A stretch of DNA of 15,304 nt from a virus. This document shows positions 327 to 12,716 of the stretch, one piece after another. Position numbers and translations under genes: made by a program. The stretch lies in the UHGV virus genome UHGV-0078760; one strand, written 5' to 3'. The notes below the pieces were generated by a model. It saw only the letters and a program-made list of their open reading frames with translations. It was not told where the DNA came from and did no database searches. The number at the start of each line of letters is the position of its first letter. Within the stretch, counting starts at the first letter, position 1.

Positions 327-1502
327 TCAGTTTTGTTTGCGATTCAATGTTTGTAATGAAGTATTATTATCGTACTCTTTCAAATATCGACCATAATGCC
401 TAAACAACATTTCTGGACCTTTATGGCCCATCTGAGTGGCGAGCCAGAACAAATTTGTACCTTGACTGATATGCCTTGTGGCGAATGTATGTCTGGTCTG
501 GTAGGGGTTACGGTATCGAATTCCAGCTTTACGTAATGTAGGTACCCACGCTTTCTTCCTAATAGCATCAGCGCTAGCCCATGCTTTATTGCTTTTGGGG
601 TCTTCGAAGACCGTATCATCTTTCATAAAAGTGAAAGATTTCTGACTAGTTAGAGCATCTATTGCTTCGGTAGTCAGTTCAACTTTCCGTGTTCCAGCTT
701 TGGTTTTGGTCCCTTTGATTACGCCAACAACGCTGGCGTTCTGAACATGGGCCGTCATCCCTATAAAGTCGATATCACGCCAACGAAGAGCACACAATTC
801 GGAACTACGCAGCCCTGTTTGTATCGCGAACCGGAAAAGATTCTCCCACTGCTTATTGCCAGCAGCAGAGAGCAAAGCGTCTACTTCTGCTGGTGATAGC
901 GGATCAACCACATAACTACTTTCTGCCTCTGATTTATCACCTTGGTACCGTGAGGCTGTTACCAGTGATACAGGGTTAATCTGAAGCACACCATCCGTCA
1001 CCGCCTCATCCAAAGCAGAACGCAGGAATGACAGTTGGTTTCGGATAGTCTTTAATGTTGTTTTCTGGTTTTGGATCCATGTCTTCAGCGCGGCCGGCGT
1101 CAACTCACTTGCAGGAAAAATATGAAGTGATGACAGCGCGCTTCGGCATTTCTTATATCCACCAATTGTTGAAGGGGATAGTTTTCTCGTTTCACAGATA
1201 ACCAGATATTCGTCCAGGTACATCTTCACCGTTTTGCCTGCGGCAGCGTTGCCGAAAATTTTTAACCGGGTAGAACGGGGAAAGTATTCTGCATAAACAA
1301 ATGTCCCCCTCTCGATCTTGTTATGGATTTCGCCGAGTGTGCGCTCGGCGTATTTGATGTTTTTTGGGGTTACGTCCAGATTAGAAAGGGGCTCACGGCA
1401 TTTAACCCCTTTATAAGTGAAGGTAATATTGATGGTTTCGCCGTTGCGATGTTTCCTAATGGTTACGCCGCGCGGGAGCTTAGGCGATTCTGTCGTGCCC
1501 AT
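327..1502 (-). CDS. int: Tyrosine site-specific integrase (lambda-family architecture)
   Basis: 391-aa ORF with ATG start; C-terminal catalytic region with conserved R...HxxR...Y pattern (..RHTFATRHISQGTNLFWLATQMGH..RHYGRY); 5' end overlaps upstream excisionase as in lambda xis/int. Confidence 0.9.
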   Translation of the reverse strand: MGTTESPKLPRGVTIRKHRNGETINITFTYKGVKCREPLSNLDVTPKNIKYAERTLGEIHNKIERGTFVYAEYFPRSTRLKIFGNAAAGKTVKMYLDEYLVICETRKLSPSTIGGYKKCRSALSSLHIFPASELTPAALKTWIQNQKTTLKTIRNQLSFLRSALDEAVTDGVLQINPVSLVTASRYQGDKSEAESSYVVDPLSPAEVDALLSAAGNKQWENLFRFAIQTGLRSSELCALRWRDIDFIGMTAHVQNASVVGVIKGTKTKAGTRKVELTTEAIDALTSQKSFTFMKDDTVFEDPKSNKAWASADAIRKKAWVPTLRKAGIRYRNPYQTRHTFATRHISQGTNLFWLATQMGHKGPEMLFRHYGRYLKEYDNNTSLQTLNRKQN

Positions 1503-5866: not shown

Positions 5867-6523
5867 TTATAAATCCATTATCACTTGTCTTACTAATCCG
5901 ACCAAACGGCAGTTGCCGTTTACCTCGAGCATCCTGTAGTTGGGATTGAGAGGTACAAGGTATTTAAGCGGACCATCAATGACGAATTTTTTTATAGTGG
6001 CTTCGTCACTTCCCATTAGCTGAGCAATGACAATTTTACCATTTGCTTGGCTGGCATCTCCAAAGTCAGGTTCTACGACGACGAGAGAGCCCTCCGGGAT
6101 GCTTGGTGCGCCATTTGGGTTAGTCATTGAGTCACCGCGGACTATTAGTGCAAAAGCGCTCTCTGAAACAGCTGCTGAAGTGTAAACCCAGTCTTGAATG
6201 TCTCGTTCCGTTATCGCACCGCTATTGGCAGTCCATTCCCCGGCTTGCACCCACGTTAAAACGGGAACTGATCTAATTCCGAATCTCTGCTCTGGGTTCA
6301 TTGTTGGCGGTTGTTGTTTCCCGTCATCCTTACCCTCCAGCAACCACTGCGGTGTCTTTTCAAGAGCAGCCGCAAGCGCCTGAAGGTTCTCACCGCCAGG
6401 TTTATAGTCACCAGATTCCCAGCCGGTGATCGTGACGCGGTTTACCCCGACAAGCTTTGCCAGGACGGATTGCGTCATCTTCAGCTCTTTTCGTCTGCTT
6501 CGGATTCGATCATTCATTTTCAT
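5867..6523 (-). CDS. cI: CI-like phage repressor (N-terminal HTH, C-terminal S24/LexA-like autopeptidase)
   Basis: N-terminal HTH segment (MTQSVLAKLVGVNRVTITGWESG); C-terminal S24 signature with GDSM serine motif and downstream lysine (..IVRGDSMTNP...KKF..). Start placed at ATG 6523 (alt 6517); the track's longer N-terminus would run into the operator region. Confidence 0.85.
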   Translation of the reverse strand: MKMNDRIRSRRKELKMTQSVLAKLVGVNRVTITGWESGDYKPGGENLQALAAALEKTPQWLLEGKDDGKQQPPTMNPEQRFGIRSVPVLTWVQAGEWTANSGAITERDIQDWVYTSAAVSESAFALIVRGDSMTNPNGAPSIPEGSLVVVEPDFGDASQANGKIVIAQLMGSDEATIKKFVIDGPLKYLVPLNPNYRMLEVNGNCRLVGLVRQVIMDL

Positions 6524-6588
6524 GTAGGCAATCCTACCATTTTCTAATGTAGGAGTGCTTGACCATTTTATGTAAGATATCCTACTAT
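6524..6588. promoter_or_regulatory. OR/PR region: rightward promoter PR with operator-like inverted repeats; candidate PRM on the opposite strand
   Basis: Plus strand: -35 TTGACC (6559-6564) - 18 nt - -10 TACTAT (6583-6588). Operator-like 14-mers GTAGGCAATCCTAC (6524-6537, abutting the cI ATG) and GTAAGATATCCTAC (6572-6585, over the -10). Weak minus-strand candidate: -35 TTACAT, -10 TACATT. Confidence 0.6.
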
Positions 6589-6622
6589 CTATGCACTGCA
6601 TGACCTAACTCCAGAGGGAAAA

Positions 6623-6820
6623 ATGAAAAAGAATGACGTTATCTCTTACTTCGGTGGCGTAGGGAAAACCGCCAAGGCGCTGAATATCTCCCACGCATCT
6701 GTATCGGGCTGGGATGAAGTTATCCCAAAGGGGAGGGCATTTGAGATCCAGGCGCTGACGAAAGGTGATTTGAAAGTTAACCAATCCCTTTATGAAAAGC
6801 GTAGTCATTCGGCTGCGTGA
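6623..6820 (+). CDS. cro: Cro-like small HTH regulator (YdaS-type Cro/C1 HTH)
   Basis: 65-aa ORF divergent from cI; GAGGG SD 5 nt upstream of ATG; HTH segment GGVGKTAKALNISHASVSGW; transcribed from the PR candidate. Confidence 0.8.
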   Translation: MKKNDVISYFGGVGKTAKALNISHASVSGWDEVIPKGRAFEIQALTKGDLKVNQSLYEKRSHSAA

Positions 6821-6848: not shown

Positions 6849-7415
6849 GTGGATAAACAACACTGGAAAGTAGAGCGACAACCAGCTTGGCTGGTGGCTG
6901 CAATCAAAAGAACGATCGCCGAAATGTCTGGTGGGTATGCCGAAGCAGCTGAATGGCTTGGTCTGTACCGCGCTGGAAAACTCTCAACGGATGCACTCTA
7001 TAACCGACTACGTAACGAAGGTGATCAAATTTTCCCGCTTGAGTGGGCGATGGTGCTTCAGGATGCGAGCGGTACTAAGTATGTCACCGATGCGATAGCC
7101 CGCCGTAGTGGTGGTGTATTCGTTCCGCTGGTGGAAGTAGATGATCTTGATAACGGCGATATCAACCAGCGTCTGATGGAGTCAATCGAATGGATTGGCA
7201 AACACTCGCAGTACCTGCGTAAGGCAACCGCCGACGGGGTTATTGATCCGGCAGAACGTGAGCAGATTGAAGAGAACAGTTATCAGGTAATGGCTAAGTG
7301 GCAGGAGCATTTGACGCTGCTATTCCGTGTTTTCTGCGCGCCAGAAAAGAATGACGCCCGCGAGTGTGCAGCTCCGGGCGCCTTGGCGAACAACTCTTCG
7401 AGTATGGAGAAATAA
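6849..7415 (+). CDS. YdaT-like protein in the CII position (putative lysis/lysogeny regulator)
   Basis: 188-aa ORF directly after cro; GTG start with AGGGGA SD 5 nt upstream. The YdaS/YdaT-type pairing is recalled from Rac-like prophages; homology not verified. Confidence 0.65.
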   Translation: MDKQHWKVERQPAWLVAAIKRTIAEMSGGYAEAAEWLGLYRAGKLSTDALYNRLRNEGDQIFPLEWAMVLQDASGTKYVTDAIARRSGGVFVPLVEVDDLDNGDINQRLMESIEWIGKHSQYLRKATADGVIDPAEREQIEENSYQVMAKWQEHLTLLFRVFCAPEKNDARECAAPGALANNSSSMEK

Positions 7416-7587
7416 TCCGCATGAGCAGTTTAACGGCTTTTAACCGTCTACCGCAACTCAGGATGATCCCGGTTTCGGGTACTCCGTTGTTTCGGTATGA
7501 ACGCAGATTATCAAACCGCTGGATTCCGTGTAACCACAGTAGGGCGGTTTCAATTGTGGGGGTCTACAACCGGAGGGCAAAACGCCA

Positions 7588-7767
7588 GTGCGCGAACTTA
7601 ACCGAAGGTTCAAAGACCACCGCGGAGTGTCTGTCCGTGTTATCCGCTGGGAACCAGAAACACAACGCGTTATCTACCTGCGTGATGGCTACCCGCACGA
7701 ATGCTTCAGCCCACTTGAGCATTTCAGGCAAAAGTTCAGGGAGATAACGGACGATCATGAGCACTAA
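7588..7767 (+). CDS. Possible small ORF, 59 aa (MRELNRRFKDHRGVSVRVIRWEPETQRVIYLRDGYPHECFSPLEHFRQKFREITDDHEH); GTG start
   Basis: Manual translation; protein-like composition in contrast to the S/R-rich 108-aa track ORF (7364..7747) in another frame. GGAGG 10 nt upstream of GTG; 3' end overlaps the initiator gene by 11 nt. Speculative. Confidence 0.25.
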   Translation: MRELNRRFKDHRGVSVRVIRWEPETQRVIYLRDGYPHECFSPLEHFRQKFREITDDHEH

Positions 7768-8614
7768 ATTAACCGGCTACGTATGGGATGGTTGCGCGGC
7801 GTCGGGCATGAAGTTGTCTAGTGTCGCGATCATGGCGCGCCTTGCTGATTTTAGCAGCGATGAGGGGGTGTGCTGGCCGTCTATTGAAACTATCGCTCGC
7901 CAGCTTGGCGCAGGGCCGAGCACTATCAGAACGGCAATCGCTAAGCTTGAAAAAGATGGCTGGCTCACGCGTACACAGCGCCGTAATGGTAACCGTAATG
8001 CTTCGAACGTTTACCGCCTGAATGTGGCGAAACTTCAGGCTGCCGCATTTTCTCAACTGTCAGATTCTGACACGTCAAAATCTGACGCATCAAATTTTGA
8101 CACCTCAAAAGCTGACCCGTCGAAATCTGGCAAAAATGGCGGTTTTGACCCGTCAGAATCTGGCGGGGATCCGTCAGTAAAATCAAAACAAGATCCACAA
8201 GTAACTTCAAAACCCTCTTGTCCGGTTGCGGCGCAACCAGACCCTGAAGTCGTGATTACTGATCAGGCAATTTTGGTTCTGACCCATTTGAACCAGATCA
8301 GCGGATCCCGGTATCAGAAATCAAAAACATCCCTGGAGAACATCCGTGCCCGACTGCGTGAGGGATACAGCGTTGCAGACCTGCAACTTGTTATCGACCT
8401 GAAGCATGAGCACTGGCACGAGAACGACGAGCAGTACCAGTACATGCGTCCGGAAACGCTGTTCGGCCCGAAGAAATTCGAGAGCTATCTGCAAAGCGCT
8501 ACCTGCTGGGAGCAGAAGGGACGGCCTAAACGGGCTGACTGGGGCGCGAAAAAGCGCGATGTGATGGCTTTTGGTCCGGTTGAAACAACGATTCCAGAGG
8601 GGTTCAGAGGATGA
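7757..8614 (+). CDS. Replication initiator protein (N-terminal winged-helix DNA-binding domain; C-terminal conserved phage replication domain); lambda O analogue
   Basis: 285 aa in the O position; low-complexity Ser/Asp/Lys-rich central linker encoded by DNA iterons; C-terminal segment (..ILVLTHLNQISGSRYQ...ETLFGPKKFESYL..) recalled as the Phg_2220_C-type domain of phage replication proteins. Confidence 0.8.
   Translation: MSTKLTGYVWDGCAASGMKLSSVAIMARLADFSSDEGVCWPSIETIARQLGAGPSTIRTAIAKLEKDGWLTRTQRRNGNRNASNVYRLNVAKLQAAAFSQLSDSDTSKSDASNFDTSKADPSKSGKNGGFDPSESGGDPSVKSKQDPQVTSKPSCPVAAQPDPEVVITDQAILVLTHLNQISGSRYQKSKTSLENIRARLREGYSVADLQLVIDLKHEHWHENDEQYQYMRPETLFGPKKFESYLQSATCWEQKGRPKRADWGAKKRDVMAFGPVETTIPEGFRG
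8066..8180. repeat. Candidate origin of replication: iterons of a 10-bp near-palindrome TGACnCnTCA at about 15-bp spacing inside the initiator gene, followed by an A-rich tract
   Basis: TGACACGTCA 8068-8077, TGACGCATCA 8083-8092, TGACACCTCA 8098-8107, TGACCCGTCG 8113-8122, TGACCCGTCA 8146-8155, plus degenerate copies; A-rich 8177-8215. Analogous to lambda ori inside gene O. Confidence 0.6.
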
Positions 8615-9930
8615 CGTTAAACAAATATTGCCAGGCGCTGGCGGCACTGCGCAGCAAACCAGCCCACGAACTGAAAGAGGTTGGCGATCAGTGGCGAACA
8701 CCGGATCTGCTTTTCTGGGGTATCAACGCGCTATTTGGTCCATTAGTTCTGGACTTGTTTGCTGACGACGACAACGCGAAGTGCCCGGCATGGTACACCG
8801 CCGAAGATAATGCACTGACACAGGACTGGTCTGAACGTCTGGCAGAACTGGGTGGTGCAGGTTATGGCAACCCACCGTATAGCCGTTCGCAGTACCACGA
8901 GAAACAGGCGATCACCGGCATGACGCACATCATGAACTACGCAGCAGCCCAGCGCGAAAAGGGCGGTCGCTATGTATTCCTGATAAAAGCTGCGCCGAGC
9001 GAAACGTGGTGGCCGGAAGATGCCGATCACATTGTATTCATCCGCGGGCGCATTGGGTTCGATCTGCCAGTGTGGTTTGTACCTGCTGACGAAAAACAAA
9101 AACCCACCAGCGCGTTTTTTGCCGGTGCCATAGCTGTATTCGATAAGTCATGGCGTGGCGAGCGTTTCAGCTATATCAACCGTACAGAACTGGAGGCAAA
9201 AGGGCGTGCGTTTATGGCTTTGGCACAATTTGCTGCCAGCAAACCTCAACCAGCAACGTCCACACCAACAGTAGCCGGTAAGCCAGAAACAGAGTTGCCA
9301 CTCACCCAGAAAGATATTTTTGATATCAGCGGTGTCGAAGCGTGGGCATGTGTTAGAGCTGCGTTCGGCGATAAAGAAGAATACACATTCAGTGAATCGA
9401 AGTTTGGGCATACCTGGGCGGCGGATTCTGTCGAAGCACCGGAATTCTCTCAGGTATCACCATTAACGATCGACAAAGCGAAGCTGCTTATTCGTGAGAG
9501 TATTTTGTTCGGTGTGGATGAGTGGCTGTTGTCGATTCAATTCGATGACGCTGCTGCGCGCCTGGATATGTCGGAACGTATTCGCACTGTTGCCCTTGAA
9601 GCATCCGGTGAATATGGCATGAACAGTGCTGATTTCATTGCAGCTATGGGAAGCCTGGATGTTTCCAGTTGGTCCAATATTCGCCACATCCGCATGCACA
9701 TCCGTGAGAAAGCTAAACCAGTGGCGGATCCGCTTCCCGAGTCCCGTATCTGGCCGTTGGAGGTTGGAATTGTATTCGACCAGGTTGATGGCGCTGACAT
9801 GCTGGATGAATCACAGCAGAACAAGCTGAAAGCCAATATCAATCAACTCTGGCTGGAGCGGACGGCCACCAGCGAAATCATTACTGCAGCTTCTGAACTT
9901 GTTCGCAGTATGAGGGGAGAGGCCGCGTGA
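8611..9930 (+). CDS. Phage Dam-like N6-adenine DNA methyltransferase (N-terminal about 190 aa with NPPY motif) fused to a C-terminal region of about 240 aa of unknown function
   Basis: ATG overlaps the initiator stop (ATGA). Translation shows WRTPDLLF...DLFADDDNA...GNPPYS, recalled as the phage Dam family pattern. The C-terminal half has no motif I recognise. Confidence 0.8.
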   Translation: MTLNKYCQALAALRSKPAHELKEVGDQWRTPDLLFWGINALFGPLVLDLFADDDNAKCPAWYTAEDNALTQDWSERLAELGGAGYGNPPYSRSQYHEKQAITGMTHIMNYAAAQREKGGRYVFLIKAAPSETWWPEDADHIVFIRGRIGFDLPVWFVPADEKQKPTSAFFAGAIAVFDKSWRGERFSYINRTELEAKGRAFMALAQFAASKPQPATSTPTVAGKPETELPLTQKDIFDISGVEAWACVRAAFGDKEEYTFSESKFGHTWAADSVEAPEFSQVSPLTIDKAKLLIRESILFGVDEWLLSIQFDDAAARLDMSERIRTVALEASGEYGMNSADFIAAMGSLDVSSWSNIRHIRMHIREKAKPVADPLPESRIWPLEVGIVFDQVDGADMLDESQQNKLKANINQLWLERTATSEIITAASELVRSMRGEAA

Positions 9931-12005: not shown

Positions 12006-12026
12006 GTGTATGGAGCGCAAAGAAGC

Positions 12027-12716
12027 ATGAATCAACAAGACCTGAATTTTGTAAGAATAGAATTGCGCCGCGCGCTACCTGACCTCTCTGGGGGAACAAA
12101 AGGGCAGCTTGAGGCTTTCAGTGAACACCCACCAGCAGACAAAAATGCCACCCCGCGCCGTGGAATTCATCTCGTCGAACTTGAAGGAGAGAAGGGGCCA
12201 CGCTTTGTTCACTCGCTTTCCGCGCCACTGTATGTACTGGAAACACGCAGCCGCCGCAGGCCAATGCCGCCGATAAAAGATGCGGAATTTGAGTCCGCGC
12301 CGTGGCGTAGGGCAGTGTCCGCGCTTAGTGGATACCAGCAGGCCTGGTTGCGGTACTGCTACGGCTTTGACCTGAGCTATAAGCACCAGGTGATGATGTG
12401 TGAATACGTCTGGAAAACTTATCAGAAATGCCTGGGTGAAAACTCGCTTCAGGAGCGCGTAGTAAAGAAACTGATAGGCCTGGTATGGCTGGCCGGGCAG
12501 GAAATTGCCGCAACCAGAAATAATGAAACCTATAAAGACTATGCTGGTGCAGCGTTGGCCCGCATGGTTAGCGTTGACCGTTCGACATGGTTGCGTGTCT
12601 ATTCAGGGCACTGGGCTGGGTTAAAGGCCGCTTTTACGCAGCTTGATGAATCTGCGTTGGCCATGGCTCTTGAATACTATGAGGAAGAAGAAGCCCTCAA
12701 AGTGGCAGAAATGTGA
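12027..12716 (+). CDS. Putative late-gene antiterminator (Q-like), assigned mainly by position
   Basis: 229 aa from ATG 12027; immediately upstream of a promoter plus intrinsic terminator arrangement preceding the late/lysis genes. No sequence similarity to lambda Q that I can recognise; a different Q family is possible. Confidence 0.5.
   Translation: MNQQDLNFVRIELRRALPDLSGGTKGQLEAFSEHPPADKNATPRRGIHLVELEGEKGPRFVHSLSAPLYVLETRSRRRPMPPIKDAEFESAPWRRAVSALSGYQQAWLRYCYGFDLSYKHQVMMCEYVWKTYQKCLGENSLQERVVKKLIGLVWLAGQEIAATRNNETYKDYAGAALARMVSVDRSTWLRVYSGHWAGLKAAFTQLDESALAMALEYYEEEEALKVAEM

What the first reader, a model, noticed from the sequence alone, without database searches (positions are those of the whole stretch)
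8066..8215. Origin-like iteron array embedded in the replication initiator gene
Five or more copies of a 10-bp near-palindrome TGACnCnTCA recur at about 15-bp spacing (8068, 8083, 8098, 8113, 8146, plus degenerate copies), followed by an A-rich tract (8177-8215). The array coincides with the low-complexity Ser/Asp/Lys linker of the initiator protein, the same ori-inside-initiator-gene arrangement as lambda, but with a different iteron sequence and period.
Basis: seen in the sequence. Interest (0 to 1): 0.4.

Follow-up and report, generated by a model that had tools for sequence, protein, structure and literature searches.

The report
Prophage replication origin inside initiator gene
A run of short repeated DNA sites in the middle of a prophage's replication-initiator gene is conserved as DNA rather than as protein, so it is very probably the phage's replication origin: the arrangement known from phage lambda, here with a different initiator domain and a different repeat.

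Summary
Window 8060-8134 holds five head-to-tail 15-bp units (TCAaAaTCTGAC+nCn). A highly conserved palindromic site follows (CCGTCAGAATCTGGCGG, 8150-8166), then two 24-bp A-rich repeats that each start with GATC (8168-8215). All of it lies in the linker-coding part of a 285-aa protein (7757-8614): a winged-helix HTH_36 N-domain plus a Phg_2220_C C-domain. The gene sits after cro and a cII-like gene in a lambdoid prophage.

Across 143 distinct homologous genes the array changes length only in 15-nt steps. Synonymous (third-codon) positions are far more conserved here than in the flanking DNA-binding domain. Codon choice is fixed (Ser TCA, Lys AAA 220:0), while the encoded amino acids vary in ways that keep the DNA motif. 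In phiP27-type relatives the same DNA motif occurs in two reading frames.

The N-domain and array move together as one mosaic module. It is joined to unrelated C-domains, one of them the lambda O C-domain. An initiator with another N-domain carries different repeats at the same place.

The lambda-like origin reading is therefore supported in silico, though no binding or replication data exist. This is a new member of a known kind.

The parts
7757..8614 (+). Initiator gene (285 aa): winged-helix N-domain, repeat-encoded linker, Phg_2220_C C-domain
   Evidence: ORF and translation. Pfam HTH_36 1e-12 and Phg_2220_C 1e-23. PHROG 'replication initiation O-like' and 'primosomal protein' families, 4e-81 to 5e-50. 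The gene lies after cro, a cII-like gene and DUF4222 in the early-right operon.
7757..8056 (+). Coding region of the N-terminal winged-helix DNA-binding domain (aa 1-100), the presumed iteron reader
   Evidence: Pfam HTH_36, GntR and MarR hits at aa 23-78. Weak PDB profile hits to GntR, MarR and PaaX winged helices. This region is always found together with the array.
8060..8134 (.). Iteron array of five 15-bp units: U1 8060 TCAGATTCTGACACG, U2 8075 TCAAAATCTGACGCA, U3 8090 TCAAATTTTGACACC, U4 8105 TCAAAAGCTGACCCG, U5 8120 TCGAAATCTGGCAAA (degenerate)
   Evidence: Repeat detection. Unit consensus and information content from 360 units of 66 non-redundant genes. Codon bias. Length varies only in 15-nt steps.
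8141..8167 (.). Most conserved block, GGTTTTGACCCGTCAGAATCTGGCGGG, containing the 17-bp near-palindrome CCGTCAGAATCTGGCGG (8150-8166); a likely high-affinity initiator site
   Evidence: Third-codon-position information is 1.36 bits here against 0.68 in the N-domain. The sliding third-position conservation peaks over 8141-8188. YCAGAWTCTGG keeps 87% of its palindromic pairs across 66 genes. phiP27-type genes have two copies 32 nt apart, in two reading frames.
8168..8215 (.). Two 24-bp A-rich direct repeats, each starting with GATC (GATCCGTCAGTAAAATCAAAACAA, GATCCACAAGTAACTTCAAAACCC); candidate DNA-unwinding region
   Evidence: Repeat family D3. A+T maximum of the gene at 8173-8212. The first GATC is kept in 66 of 66 genes and the second in 58 of 66; third-position information is 1.64 and 1.15 bits. 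phiP27 has the equivalent repeats at 24-bp spacing. The unwinding function is inferred, not shown.
8196..8209 (.). Mosaic joint between the origin-specificity module (N-domain plus repeats) and the C-domain
   Evidence: Megablast hits to SfIV, SfII and PhiR49 end at gene nt 440. Hits to Salmonella phages 118970_sal3 and F1055 start at nt 453. Protein alignment agrees.
8276..8494 (+). Coding region of the Phg_2220_C domain (aa 174-246); presumed to recruit the host replication machinery
   Evidence: Pfam PF09524 and TIGR02220. PHROG 'DnaD-like helicase loader' family at 7e-8. The function is inferred; no solved relative was found.
8611..9930 (+). Co-transcribed phage Dam-type N6-adenine methyltransferase gene overlapping the initiator stop codon; a possible link to the GATC-headed repeats
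   Evidence: Pfam Dam 7.5e-43 and TIGR01712 5e-61. A Dam-like gene lies just downstream in 88 of 142 related loci. Any functional link is speculative.

Best explanation
Window 8060-8215 is the cis-acting replication origin of this lambdoid prophage, embedded in the linker-coding part of its own initiator gene.

Proposed mechanism (all steps inferred):
1. After induction, transcription from the early-right promoter produces the initiator.
2. Its N-terminal winged-helix domain, probably as dimers, binds the palindromic sites (G)TCAGAWTCTGA(C). These sites are packed at 15-bp spacing (five units, 8060-8134), with a separate, best-conserved site at 8150-8166.
3. The resulting nucleoprotein complex destabilises the adjacent A-rich pair of GATC-headed 24-bp repeats (8168-8215).
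4. The C-terminal Phg_2220_C domain brings in the host helicase machinery. It must be the host's, because the phage encodes no helicase, loader or primase anywhere between int and Q.

Shown here: the repeats exist; they are under DNA-level purifying selection that is independent of reading frame; they are inherited as one module with the N-domain; and they occupy the same place as the lambda and P22 origins.
For: 1. DNA-level constraint. In 360 units from 66 non-redundant genes the information content follows the motif TCAaAaTCTGAc followed by a variable nCn, not codon position. Third positions 3, 6, 9 and 12 of the unit carry 1.58, 1.26, 1.03 and 0.77 bits, against a mean of 0.68 bits for third positions in the N-domain. 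First and second positions of the fifth codon carry only 0.49 and 0.74 bits.
2. Codon choice.
   - Ser codon 1: TCA 306, TCG 30, all other codons 0.
   - Ser codon 3: TCT 214, TCC 52, TCG 12, TCA 1.
   - Lys: AAA 220, AAG 0.
   - Asp: GAC 200, GAT 45.
   - Elsewhere in the same genes AGC is the commonest Ser codon, Lys is AAA 561 to AAG 380, and Asp is GAC 356 to GAT 429.
   - Codon 3 changes amino acid (S, F, A, T, I, P) but usually keeps its third base T (275 of 360 units).
3. Synonymous conservation rises from about 0.6 bits to 1.3-1.8 bits exactly over 8045-8212. Third-position divergence from the window is 0.258 there against 0.478 in the N-domain (n=27, Wilcoxon p=6e-6).
4. Frame independence. 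In phiP27 (L007) and L081 the motif GTTTTGACCCTTCAGAATCTGG occurs twice, 32 nt apart, read as FDPSDSG and as VLTLQNL.
5. Array length differs among 133 genes only in 15-nt steps: 48, 93, 108, 123, 138 and 183 nt between anchors, apart from two cases where the left anchor was misplaced.
6. Module behaviour.
   - The same N-domain and array are joined to Phg_2220_C (113 genes), to a lambda O-type C-domain (20 genes; SfIV against lambda O, E=1e-25), or to a third type in phiP27, where a DnaC-like loader and a DnaB helicase follow.
   - Phage 118970_sal3 has the same C-domain, another N-domain, and four unrelated 23-bp repeats at the same place.
   - A scan of viral contigs with the two-unit DNA pattern alone returned 80 loci. 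79 have the N-domain directly upstream, and the last is at a locus end.
7. Position. The array occupies nt 304-407 of 858. The lambda iterons occupy nt 349-433 of 900 and the P22 rep_origin nt 353-497 of 816.
8. Published comparative analysis (binding shown only for lambda O) holds that lambda, P22 and L each carry their own iterons inside the initiator gene (PMC8022706).
9. Relatives with this module (phiNP, SfIV, LLS, YeP1) are isolated phages; infective virions are documented for phiNP (PMC6456863).
Against: - There is no experimental evidence of binding or origin activity for any member of this family.
- The N-domain is not detectably a lambda O (Phage_rep_O) domain. hhalign gives 21% probability against P22 gp18 and nothing against lambda O.
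- The A+T-rich tract is only 70% A+T.
- No DnaA boxes lie nearby.
- Units within an array are related by descent, and the sequences are phylogenetically related, so the Fisher p-values overstate significance.
- Choosing sequences by two anchor motifs inflates conservation at 8060-8067 and 8168-8180.
- A 15-bp centre-to-centre spacing is tight for simultaneous occupancy by winged-helix dimers.
Confidence: 0.75

Rival explanations
1. The repeats are a cis-acting DNA element, but not the origin. They could be initiator-binding sites used for autoregulation, copy control or handcuffing, or sites for another phage or host protein, with the true origin lying elsewhere.
For: The comparative data show DNA-level selection and linkage to the N-domain, but they say nothing about what the bound complex does. 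The A+T-rich tract is modest.
Against: - Motif copies are confined to 8060-8163, with none near the promoter region, so an operator role for the gene's own promoter is unlikely.
- Upstream genes differ among relatives (DUF4222, Rha, Ant) while the array stays, which argues against those proteins as binders.
- No repeat array elsewhere in the window was detected by Tandem Repeats Finder beyond a 20-nt chance-level hit.
- The position matches the annotated lambda and P22 origins.
Confidence: 0.13
2. The repeats matter only as protein. A Ser/Asp/Lys-rich flexible linker built of pentapeptide repeats is selected, and the DNA periodicity is a by-product.
For: The period is 15 nt, exactly five codons. 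The segment encodes a low-complexity peptide between two domains. The single-sequence structure model shows no secondary structure at aa 104-162, but its confidence is too low to count.
Against: - Amino acids vary while the bases of the motif are kept, including third codon positions.
- Two Ser positions in the same repeat use different, fixed codons (TCA against TCT), and Lys is AAA 220 to 0.
- The motif recurs in another reading frame, encoding a different peptide.
- Synonymous divergence is halved compared with the adjacent structured domain.
Confidence: 0.05
3. The array is a neutral, slippage-prone minisatellite, kept uniform by concerted evolution and without function.
For: Copy number varies from 1 to 10 units in whole-unit steps, and a four-unit block is duplicated in L070.
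Against: The same consensus, including synonymous bases, is kept across genera from Escherichia to Providencia, Yersinia and Rahnella, while N-domain third positions are near saturation. The non-repeated right block and the GATC sites are even better conserved.
Confidence: 0.03

Closest known systems
Bacteriophage lambda ori (four iterons plus an A+T-rich region inside gene O)
   Same: - Multiple dyad-symmetric initiator sites inside the initiator ORF, at the segment between the DNA-binding N-domain and the C-domain.
- An A+T-rich tract immediately downstream.
- Location in the early-right operon after cro and cII.
- The N-domain and iterons behave as one exchangeable specificity module.
- Some relatives (SfIV type) even carry the lambda O C-terminal domain.
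   Different: - The N-domain is Pfam HTH_36, not Phage_rep_O, and shows no detectable similarity to lambda O.
- The iteron is an 11-13 bp palindrome, TCAGAWTCTGA, at 15-bp spacing, instead of 18-19 bp sites at 20-24 bp spacing.
- Five units plus one separate site, instead of four iterons.
- No P gene, helicase or loader in the phage.
- The A+T-rich part consists of two GATC-headed 24-bp repeats.
Phage P22 gene 18 origin and phage L gene 18 origin (Casjens and colleagues, PMC8022706)
   Same: These are lambdoid initiators, each with its own iteron type inside the coding region. This is the precedent for 'different initiator, different iteron, same place'. P22 gp18 aligns weakly with the window protein over its whole length (19% identity, pairwise E=1e-4).
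   Different: P22 and L gp18 are Phage_rep_O proteins (shown here for P22) and are followed by a DnaB-type helicase gene (gene 12). Their repeats are about 20 bp in P22 and 11 bp (TGTCCAACGGA) in L, unrelated to TCAGAWTCTGA.
Iteron-type plasmid origins (pSC101, R6K, RK2, P1 oriR)
   Same: A winged-helix initiator binds tandem repeats next to an A+T-rich repeated unwinding element. P1 oriR and oriC also have GATC-bearing repeats in the unwinding region (my own knowledge, not tested here).
   Different: Plasmid iterons are typically 17-22 bp at about 22-bp (two-turn) spacing, lie outside the rep ORF, and are accompanied by DnaA boxes. Here the spacing is 15 bp, the array is inside the ORF, and no DnaA box lies within about 1 kb.

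Membership tests
Lambdoid 'origin inside the initiator gene' (ori-lambda type) | Three or more repeated initiator sites located inside the initiator ORF, between the N- and C-terminal domains | tested here: met
   Five 15-bp units at 8060-8134 plus a site at 8150-8166, at gene nt 304-410 of 858, between HTH_36 (aa 23-70) and Phg_2220_C (aa 174-246). Same relative position as the lambda and P22 origins.
Lambdoid 'origin inside the initiator gene' (ori-lambda type) | Each site has internal dyad symmetry | tested here: met
   U1 TCAGATTCTGA is a perfect 11-bp palindrome. Unit 11-mers keep 74% of palindromic pairs and the right site keeps 87%, across 66 genes.
Lambdoid 'origin inside the initiator gene' (ori-lambda type) | An A+T-rich region directly downstream of the iterons | tested here: inconclusive
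   8173-8212 is the A+T maximum of the gene, but it is only 70% A+T (97th percentile of the window) with 51% A on the top strand. It is conserved as DNA. Unwinding is untested.
Lambdoid 'origin inside the initiator gene' (ori-lambda type) | Iterons co-inherited with the N-terminal (origin-binding) domain across mosaic relatives | tested here: met
   Module boundary at gene nt 440-453. The same N-domain and array occur with three C-domain types. Another N-domain carries other repeats. 79 of 80 pattern-found loci have the N-domain upstream.
Lambdoid 'origin inside the initiator gene' (ori-lambda type) | The initiator binds the repeats and the segment supports initiator-dependent replication | not testable with these tools
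   This needs EMSA or footprinting and a plasmid-rescue or marker-frequency experiment.
Lambda O protein family (Pfam PF04492 Phage_rep_O) | The N-terminal domain matches Phage_rep_O | tested here: not met
   No Phage_rep_O hit for the window protein at E<=0.01, whereas lambda O and P22 gp18 score 6e-36 and 7e-38. BLASTP against lambda O shows no significant alignment. hhalign gives 0.1% probability against lambda O and 21% against P22 gp18.
Lambda O/P replication module | The initiator is followed by a helicase loader (P) or a phage helicase | tested here: not met
   The next gene is a Dam methyltransferase. No helicase, loader or primase domain was found in the 16 larger ORFs scanned with Pfam between int (327-1502) and Q (12006-12716); four of these ORFs have no Pfam match at all.
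Plasmid iteron origins (Rep_3/RepA type) | Direct repeats of about 17-22 bp at about two-turn spacing, with DnaA boxes nearby | tested here: not met
   The period is 15 bp. No TTWTNCACA match with up to one mismatch lies between 6857 and 9218, and there is no enrichment in the window.

The most novel reading that the evidence does not exclude
This could be a distinct class of lambdoid origin, with three linked properties. First, an HTH_36 winged-helix initiator coats a run of alternately oriented half-sites spaced about 7.5 bp apart (15-bp palindromic units). Second, it opens a pair of GATC-headed 24-bp repeats whose methylation state is set by the Dam methyltransferase co-transcribed just downstream. 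Third, it recruits the host DnaB/DnaC directly through the Phg_2220_C domain, with no phage-encoded loader or helicase. That would make it a lambda-like origin that has dispensed with P and added methylation control.
Probability: 0.15. Interest if true: 0.5.

Novelty: new member of a known kind. Interest (0 to 1): 0.3.

Why it matters
- It places the probable origin of a very common family of enterobacterial prophages. Homologues of the gene (megablast matches, nearly all covering only part of it) are in 1850 of 5426 complete E. coli genomes, and the family includes SfII, SfIV, phiNP, phiP27-type Stx2e phages and an E. coli Nissle 1917 prophage.
- Current annotation calls this gene a 'GntR family transcriptional regulator', a 'conserved phage C-terminal domain protein' or a 'primosomal protein', and no origin is marked.
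- It gives a concrete iteron (TCAGAWTCTGA at 15-bp phasing) and a clear module boundary. These would be useful for replicon typing, for predicting replication incompatibility or cross-activation between co-resident prophages, and for building vectors.
- It is a clean example of DNA-level selection overriding codon-level selection inside a gene.
- Conceptually it extends a known rule rather than overturning anything.

Tried and rejected
- Structure prediction from the single sequence gave mean pLDDT 43.7 and pTM 0.25, too poor to use, so no fold search was run. The homologues returned by the protein search were all at least 98% identical and useless as an alignment. Sequences derived from fetched loci are not accepted by the structure tool.
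- PDB sequence and profile searches gave only weak winged-helix hits (GntR, MarR, PaaX) for the N-domain and nothing meaningful for the C-domain.
- The Rfam scan of 7000-9000 gave only chance-level microRNA hairpin hits, caused by the dyad symmetry. The single-strand fold z-score of -5.9 reflects the palindromic units, not an RNA gene.
- The promoter and terminator scan found nothing in the array, so an internal promoter or operator was rejected.
- The DnaA-box search found none near the array, which argues against a DnaA-assisted, plasmid-type origin.
- Single-linkage clustering of C-domains merged everything into one cluster through shared tails. It was replaced by classification against two reference domains.
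- My first unit count was circular, because units were chosen by TC..GA. It was replaced by anchor-based slicing.
- Literature: a full-text search for the iteron sequences found no relevant paper. The SfIV paper says nothing on an origin. The 2002 SfV genome paper (PMC134923) is not held, so a prior mention of these repeats cannot be excluded.

Full report
**1. What is in the sequence**

The window is the early region of a lambdoid prophage. The genes identified are:
- integrase (327-1502, minus strand)
- a LexA/CI-type repressor (5867-6601, minus strand)
- P22-type Cro (6623-6820)
- a cII-like CP76 protein (6849-7415)
- a DUF4222 ORF
- a 285-aa ORF (7757-8614)
- a Dam-type methyltransferase (8611-9930)
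- RusA, an Ant/Rha protein and DUF968
- antiterminator Q (12006-12716)

An identical protein is on record from Citrobacter braakii.

The 285-aa protein has a winged-helix HTH_36 domain (aa 23-70) and a Phg_2220_C domain (aa 174-246). It matches PHROG families annotated 'replication initiation O-like', 'replication initiation protein' and 'primosomal protein', with E-values from 4e-81 to 5e-50.

The exact 10-mer TGACNCNTCA occurs at 8068, 8083, 8098 and 8146 and nowhere else (0.41 expected). The copy at 8113 has one mismatch. Tandem Repeats Finder gives period 15 with 4.7 copies over 8059-8129.

**2. Anatomy**

Read in the gene's frame, the array is five 15-nt units (8060, 8075, 8090, 8105, 8120) with consensus TCAaAaTCTGAC plus nCn. 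After an 18-nt gap (33 nt start to start) comes GGTTTTGACCCGTCAGAATCTGGCGGG (8141-8167). It contains the 17-bp near-palindrome CCGTCAGAATCTGGCGG. Two 24-bp direct repeats follow, each beginning with GATC (8168 and 8192). The 40-mer 8173-8212 is the A+T maximum of the gene, at 70% and the 97th percentile of the window.

Motif copies (TCAGAWTCTGA with up to two mismatches) are confined to 8060-8163, apart from one chance-level hit.

**3. Is the constraint on DNA or on protein?**

I collected 170 loci holding this gene: annotated phages and E. coli genomes, one genome per species and viral contigs. They yield 143 distinct genes. In 133 of them both a left and a right anchor motif are present in frame.

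- **Length.** The distance between the anchors takes only the values 48, 93, 108, 123, 138 and 183 nt, that is, whole 15-nt steps. The exception is two cases where the left anchor was misplaced.
- **Information content.** I kept 66 sequences that differ by more than 5% in N-domain DNA and sliced the arrays blindly by register, giving 360 units. Information content follows the DNA motif and not codon position. Unit positions 3, 6, 9 and 12, all third codon positions, carry 1.58, 1.26, 1.03 and 0.77 bits. Third positions in the N-domain of the same genes average 0.68 bits. The first and second positions of the fifth codon carry only 0.49 and 0.74 bits.
- **Codon choice**:

| Position | In the units | Elsewhere in the same genes |
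|---|---|---|
| Ser, codon 1 | TCA 306, TCG 30, others 0 | AGC is the commonest Ser codon |
| Ser, codon 3 | TCT 214, TCC 52, TCG 12, TCA 1 | as above |
| Lys | AAA 220, AAG 0 | AAA 561, AAG 380 |
| Asp | GAC 200, GAT 45 | GAC 356, GAT 429 |

- **Amino-acid variation.** The third codon changes amino acid freely (S, F, A, T, I, P) but usually keeps its final T (275 of 360 units).
- **Profile along the gene.** Third-position conservation rises from about 0.6 bits to 1.3-1.8 bits over 8045-8212 and peaks at 8141-8188. Third-position divergence from the window sequence is 0.258 in this segment against 0.478 in the N-domain (27 comparisons, Wilcoxon p=6e-6).
- **GATC sites.** The two GATC sites are kept in 66 of 66 and 58 of 66 genes. 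Asp is always GAT there, although GAC dominates a few codons upstream.
- **Reading frame.** In phiP27 and a Citrobacter relative (L081) the motif GTTTTGACCCTTCAGAATCTGG occurs twice, 32 nt apart. The two copies are therefore in two reading frames and encode FDPSDSG and VLTLQNL.

These results rule out a purely peptide-level explanation.

Two caveats apply. The units and the sequences are related by descent, so the Fisher p-values are inflated. Anchor selection also biases about 20 positions. The effect sizes and the frame-shifted copy do not depend on either point.

**4. Who reads the repeats?**

The N-domain and the repeats behave as one mosaic module.
- Megablast matches to SfIV, SfII, PhiR49 and Kati stop at gene nt 440. 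Matches to Salmonella phages 118970_sal3 and F1055 start at nt 453.
- Among the 133 anchored genes, the module is joined to a Phg_2220_C C-domain in 113 and to a different C-domain in 20.
- That second C-domain is homologous to the C-terminal domain of lambda O (SfIV against lambda O, E=1e-25).
- phiP27 has a third C-domain type, and there the gene is followed by a DnaC-like loader and a DnaB helicase.
- Conversely, 118970_sal3 has the window's C-domain but an unrelated N-domain. At the same place in the gene it carries four unrelated 23-bp repeats.
- Upstream genes also vary (DUF4222, Rha, Ant) without affecting the array.
- I scanned viral contigs with a two-unit DNA pattern alone, which makes no reference to the protein. 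It returned 80 loci. In 79 the N-domain lies directly upstream, two of these after correcting a strand artefact caused by the palindrome. The 80th is at a locus end.

The N-terminal winged helix is therefore by far the best candidate binder.

**5. Which unit is the binding site?**

The alternative register, (G)TCAGAWTCTGA(C), is centred on the conserved A/T core. The array starts and ends in this register: U1 is a perfect 11-bp palindrome preceded by CTG, not by TGAC. Inside the array the two registers are equally palindromic. I therefore favour TCAGAWTCTGA as the iteron, with moderate confidence. Either way, the half-sites alternate in orientation about every 7.5 bp.

**6. Mechanism**

Steps shown:
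- the DNA-level selection
- the linkage of the repeats to the N-domain
- the lambda-like position. The lambda iterons lie at nt 349-433 of 900 and the P22 rep_origin at nt 353-497 of 816; here the array lies at nt 304-410 of 858.

Steps inferred:
- initiator dimers bind the sites
- the complex opens the A-rich GATC-headed repeats
- the C-domain recruits the host helicase. This follows because no helicase, loader or primase domain was found in the larger ORFs scanned between int and Q.

No DnaA box lies within about 1 kb. Phages carrying the module are isolated phages, and phiNP is documented to produce infective virions (PMC6456863).

**7. Comparison with the known**

The arrangement is the one established for lambda. 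Casjens and colleagues generalised it explicitly: lambda, P22 and L each have their own iterons inside the initiator coding region (PMC8022706).

The differences here are:
- the initiator N-domain is HTH_36, not Phage_rep_O
- the iteron sequence and its 15-bp phasing
- the absence of P or a helicase
- the GATC-headed repeats, often accompanied by a Dam gene (88 of 142 loci)

I found no paper that gives this iteron. Subscription-journal papers such as the SfV genome paper are not held.

**8. Verdict**

This is a new member of a known kind. Confidence that the segment is the origin is about 0.75. Interest is 0.3: the finding is useful for annotation and as a clean case of DNA-level selection inside a gene, but it would not surprise a phage specialist.

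Noticed in passing
window 8611-9930: The gene after the initiator overlaps its stop codon (ATGA). It encodes a 439-aa protein whose Dam-type N6-adenine methyltransferase domain covers only aa 19-199; the rest is unassigned. A Dam-like gene lies within about 900 nt downstream in 88 of 142 related loci.
   Followed up: partly
window 8168-8304: Five GATC sites lie within 137 bp (8168, 8192, 8261, 8296, 8304), against about 0.7 expected at the window's own density. Other GATC clusters exist in the window, so only the first two, which are conserved, are clearly meaningful.
   Followed up: partly
L004:1501-2442 (Shigella phage SfIV) and 19 other loci: These initiators are chimeras of the HTH_36 N-domain and array with a lambda O-type C-terminal domain (E=1e-25 against lambda O). 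No lambda P homologue follows; instead there is a 164-aa YfdN-like ORF. The same YfdN-like domain is fused to the C-terminus of the 118970_sal3 initiator.
   Followed up: partly
L008:1715-1849 (Salmonella phage 118970_sal3): An initiator with the same Phg_2220_C domain but an unrelated N-domain carries four 23-bp repeats (AGAATGTGGAAACNCCGCAA type). A second set of 23-bp-spaced repeats follows at 1858-1903, at the equivalent position in the gene.
   Followed up: partly
L070 (Providencia sp. MAG), gene nt 313-447: The array has expanded to ten units by duplication of a 60-nt (four-unit) block. Most units read TCAAAATCTGTC or TCAAAATCTGTT instead of ...TGAC, a half-site variant shared by Providencia and Proteus relatives. 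Co-variation with N-domain residues was not analysed.
   Followed up: no
L078 and L088 (E. coli ECDA1023, ECGI0523): The initiator ORF follows the family for about 78 residues and then continues into unrelated sequence. This suggests a disrupted or rearranged prophage.
   Followed up: no
L023, L027, L055: Assemblies labelled Vagococcus sp., Chryseobacterium sp. and Martelella alba contain this enterobacterial prophage module, with 80-90% N-domain protein identity. This looks like contamination of those assemblies rather than true hosts.
   Followed up: no
plasmid records NZ_CP081716.1 (37.7 kb) and CP085522.1 (41.5 kb): These E. coli 'plasmids' of phage-genome size carry the array region at about 84% identity. 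They may be circular replicating phage genomes deposited as plasmids.
   Followed up: no
window 7364-7767: The mechanical ORF 7364-7747 (127 aa) has no Pfam hit. Relatives annotate instead a 59-aa DUF4222 gene corresponding to 7588-7767, which overlaps the initiator start by 11 nt.
   Followed up: no
window 8056-8165: As single-stranded DNA the array folds into a long hairpin (-30.2 kcal/mol, z=-5.9), because palindromic units make the whole array dyad-symmetric (8061-8080 pairs with 8143-8162). Whether a cruciform or hairpin matters at the origin is unknown.
   Followed up: partly
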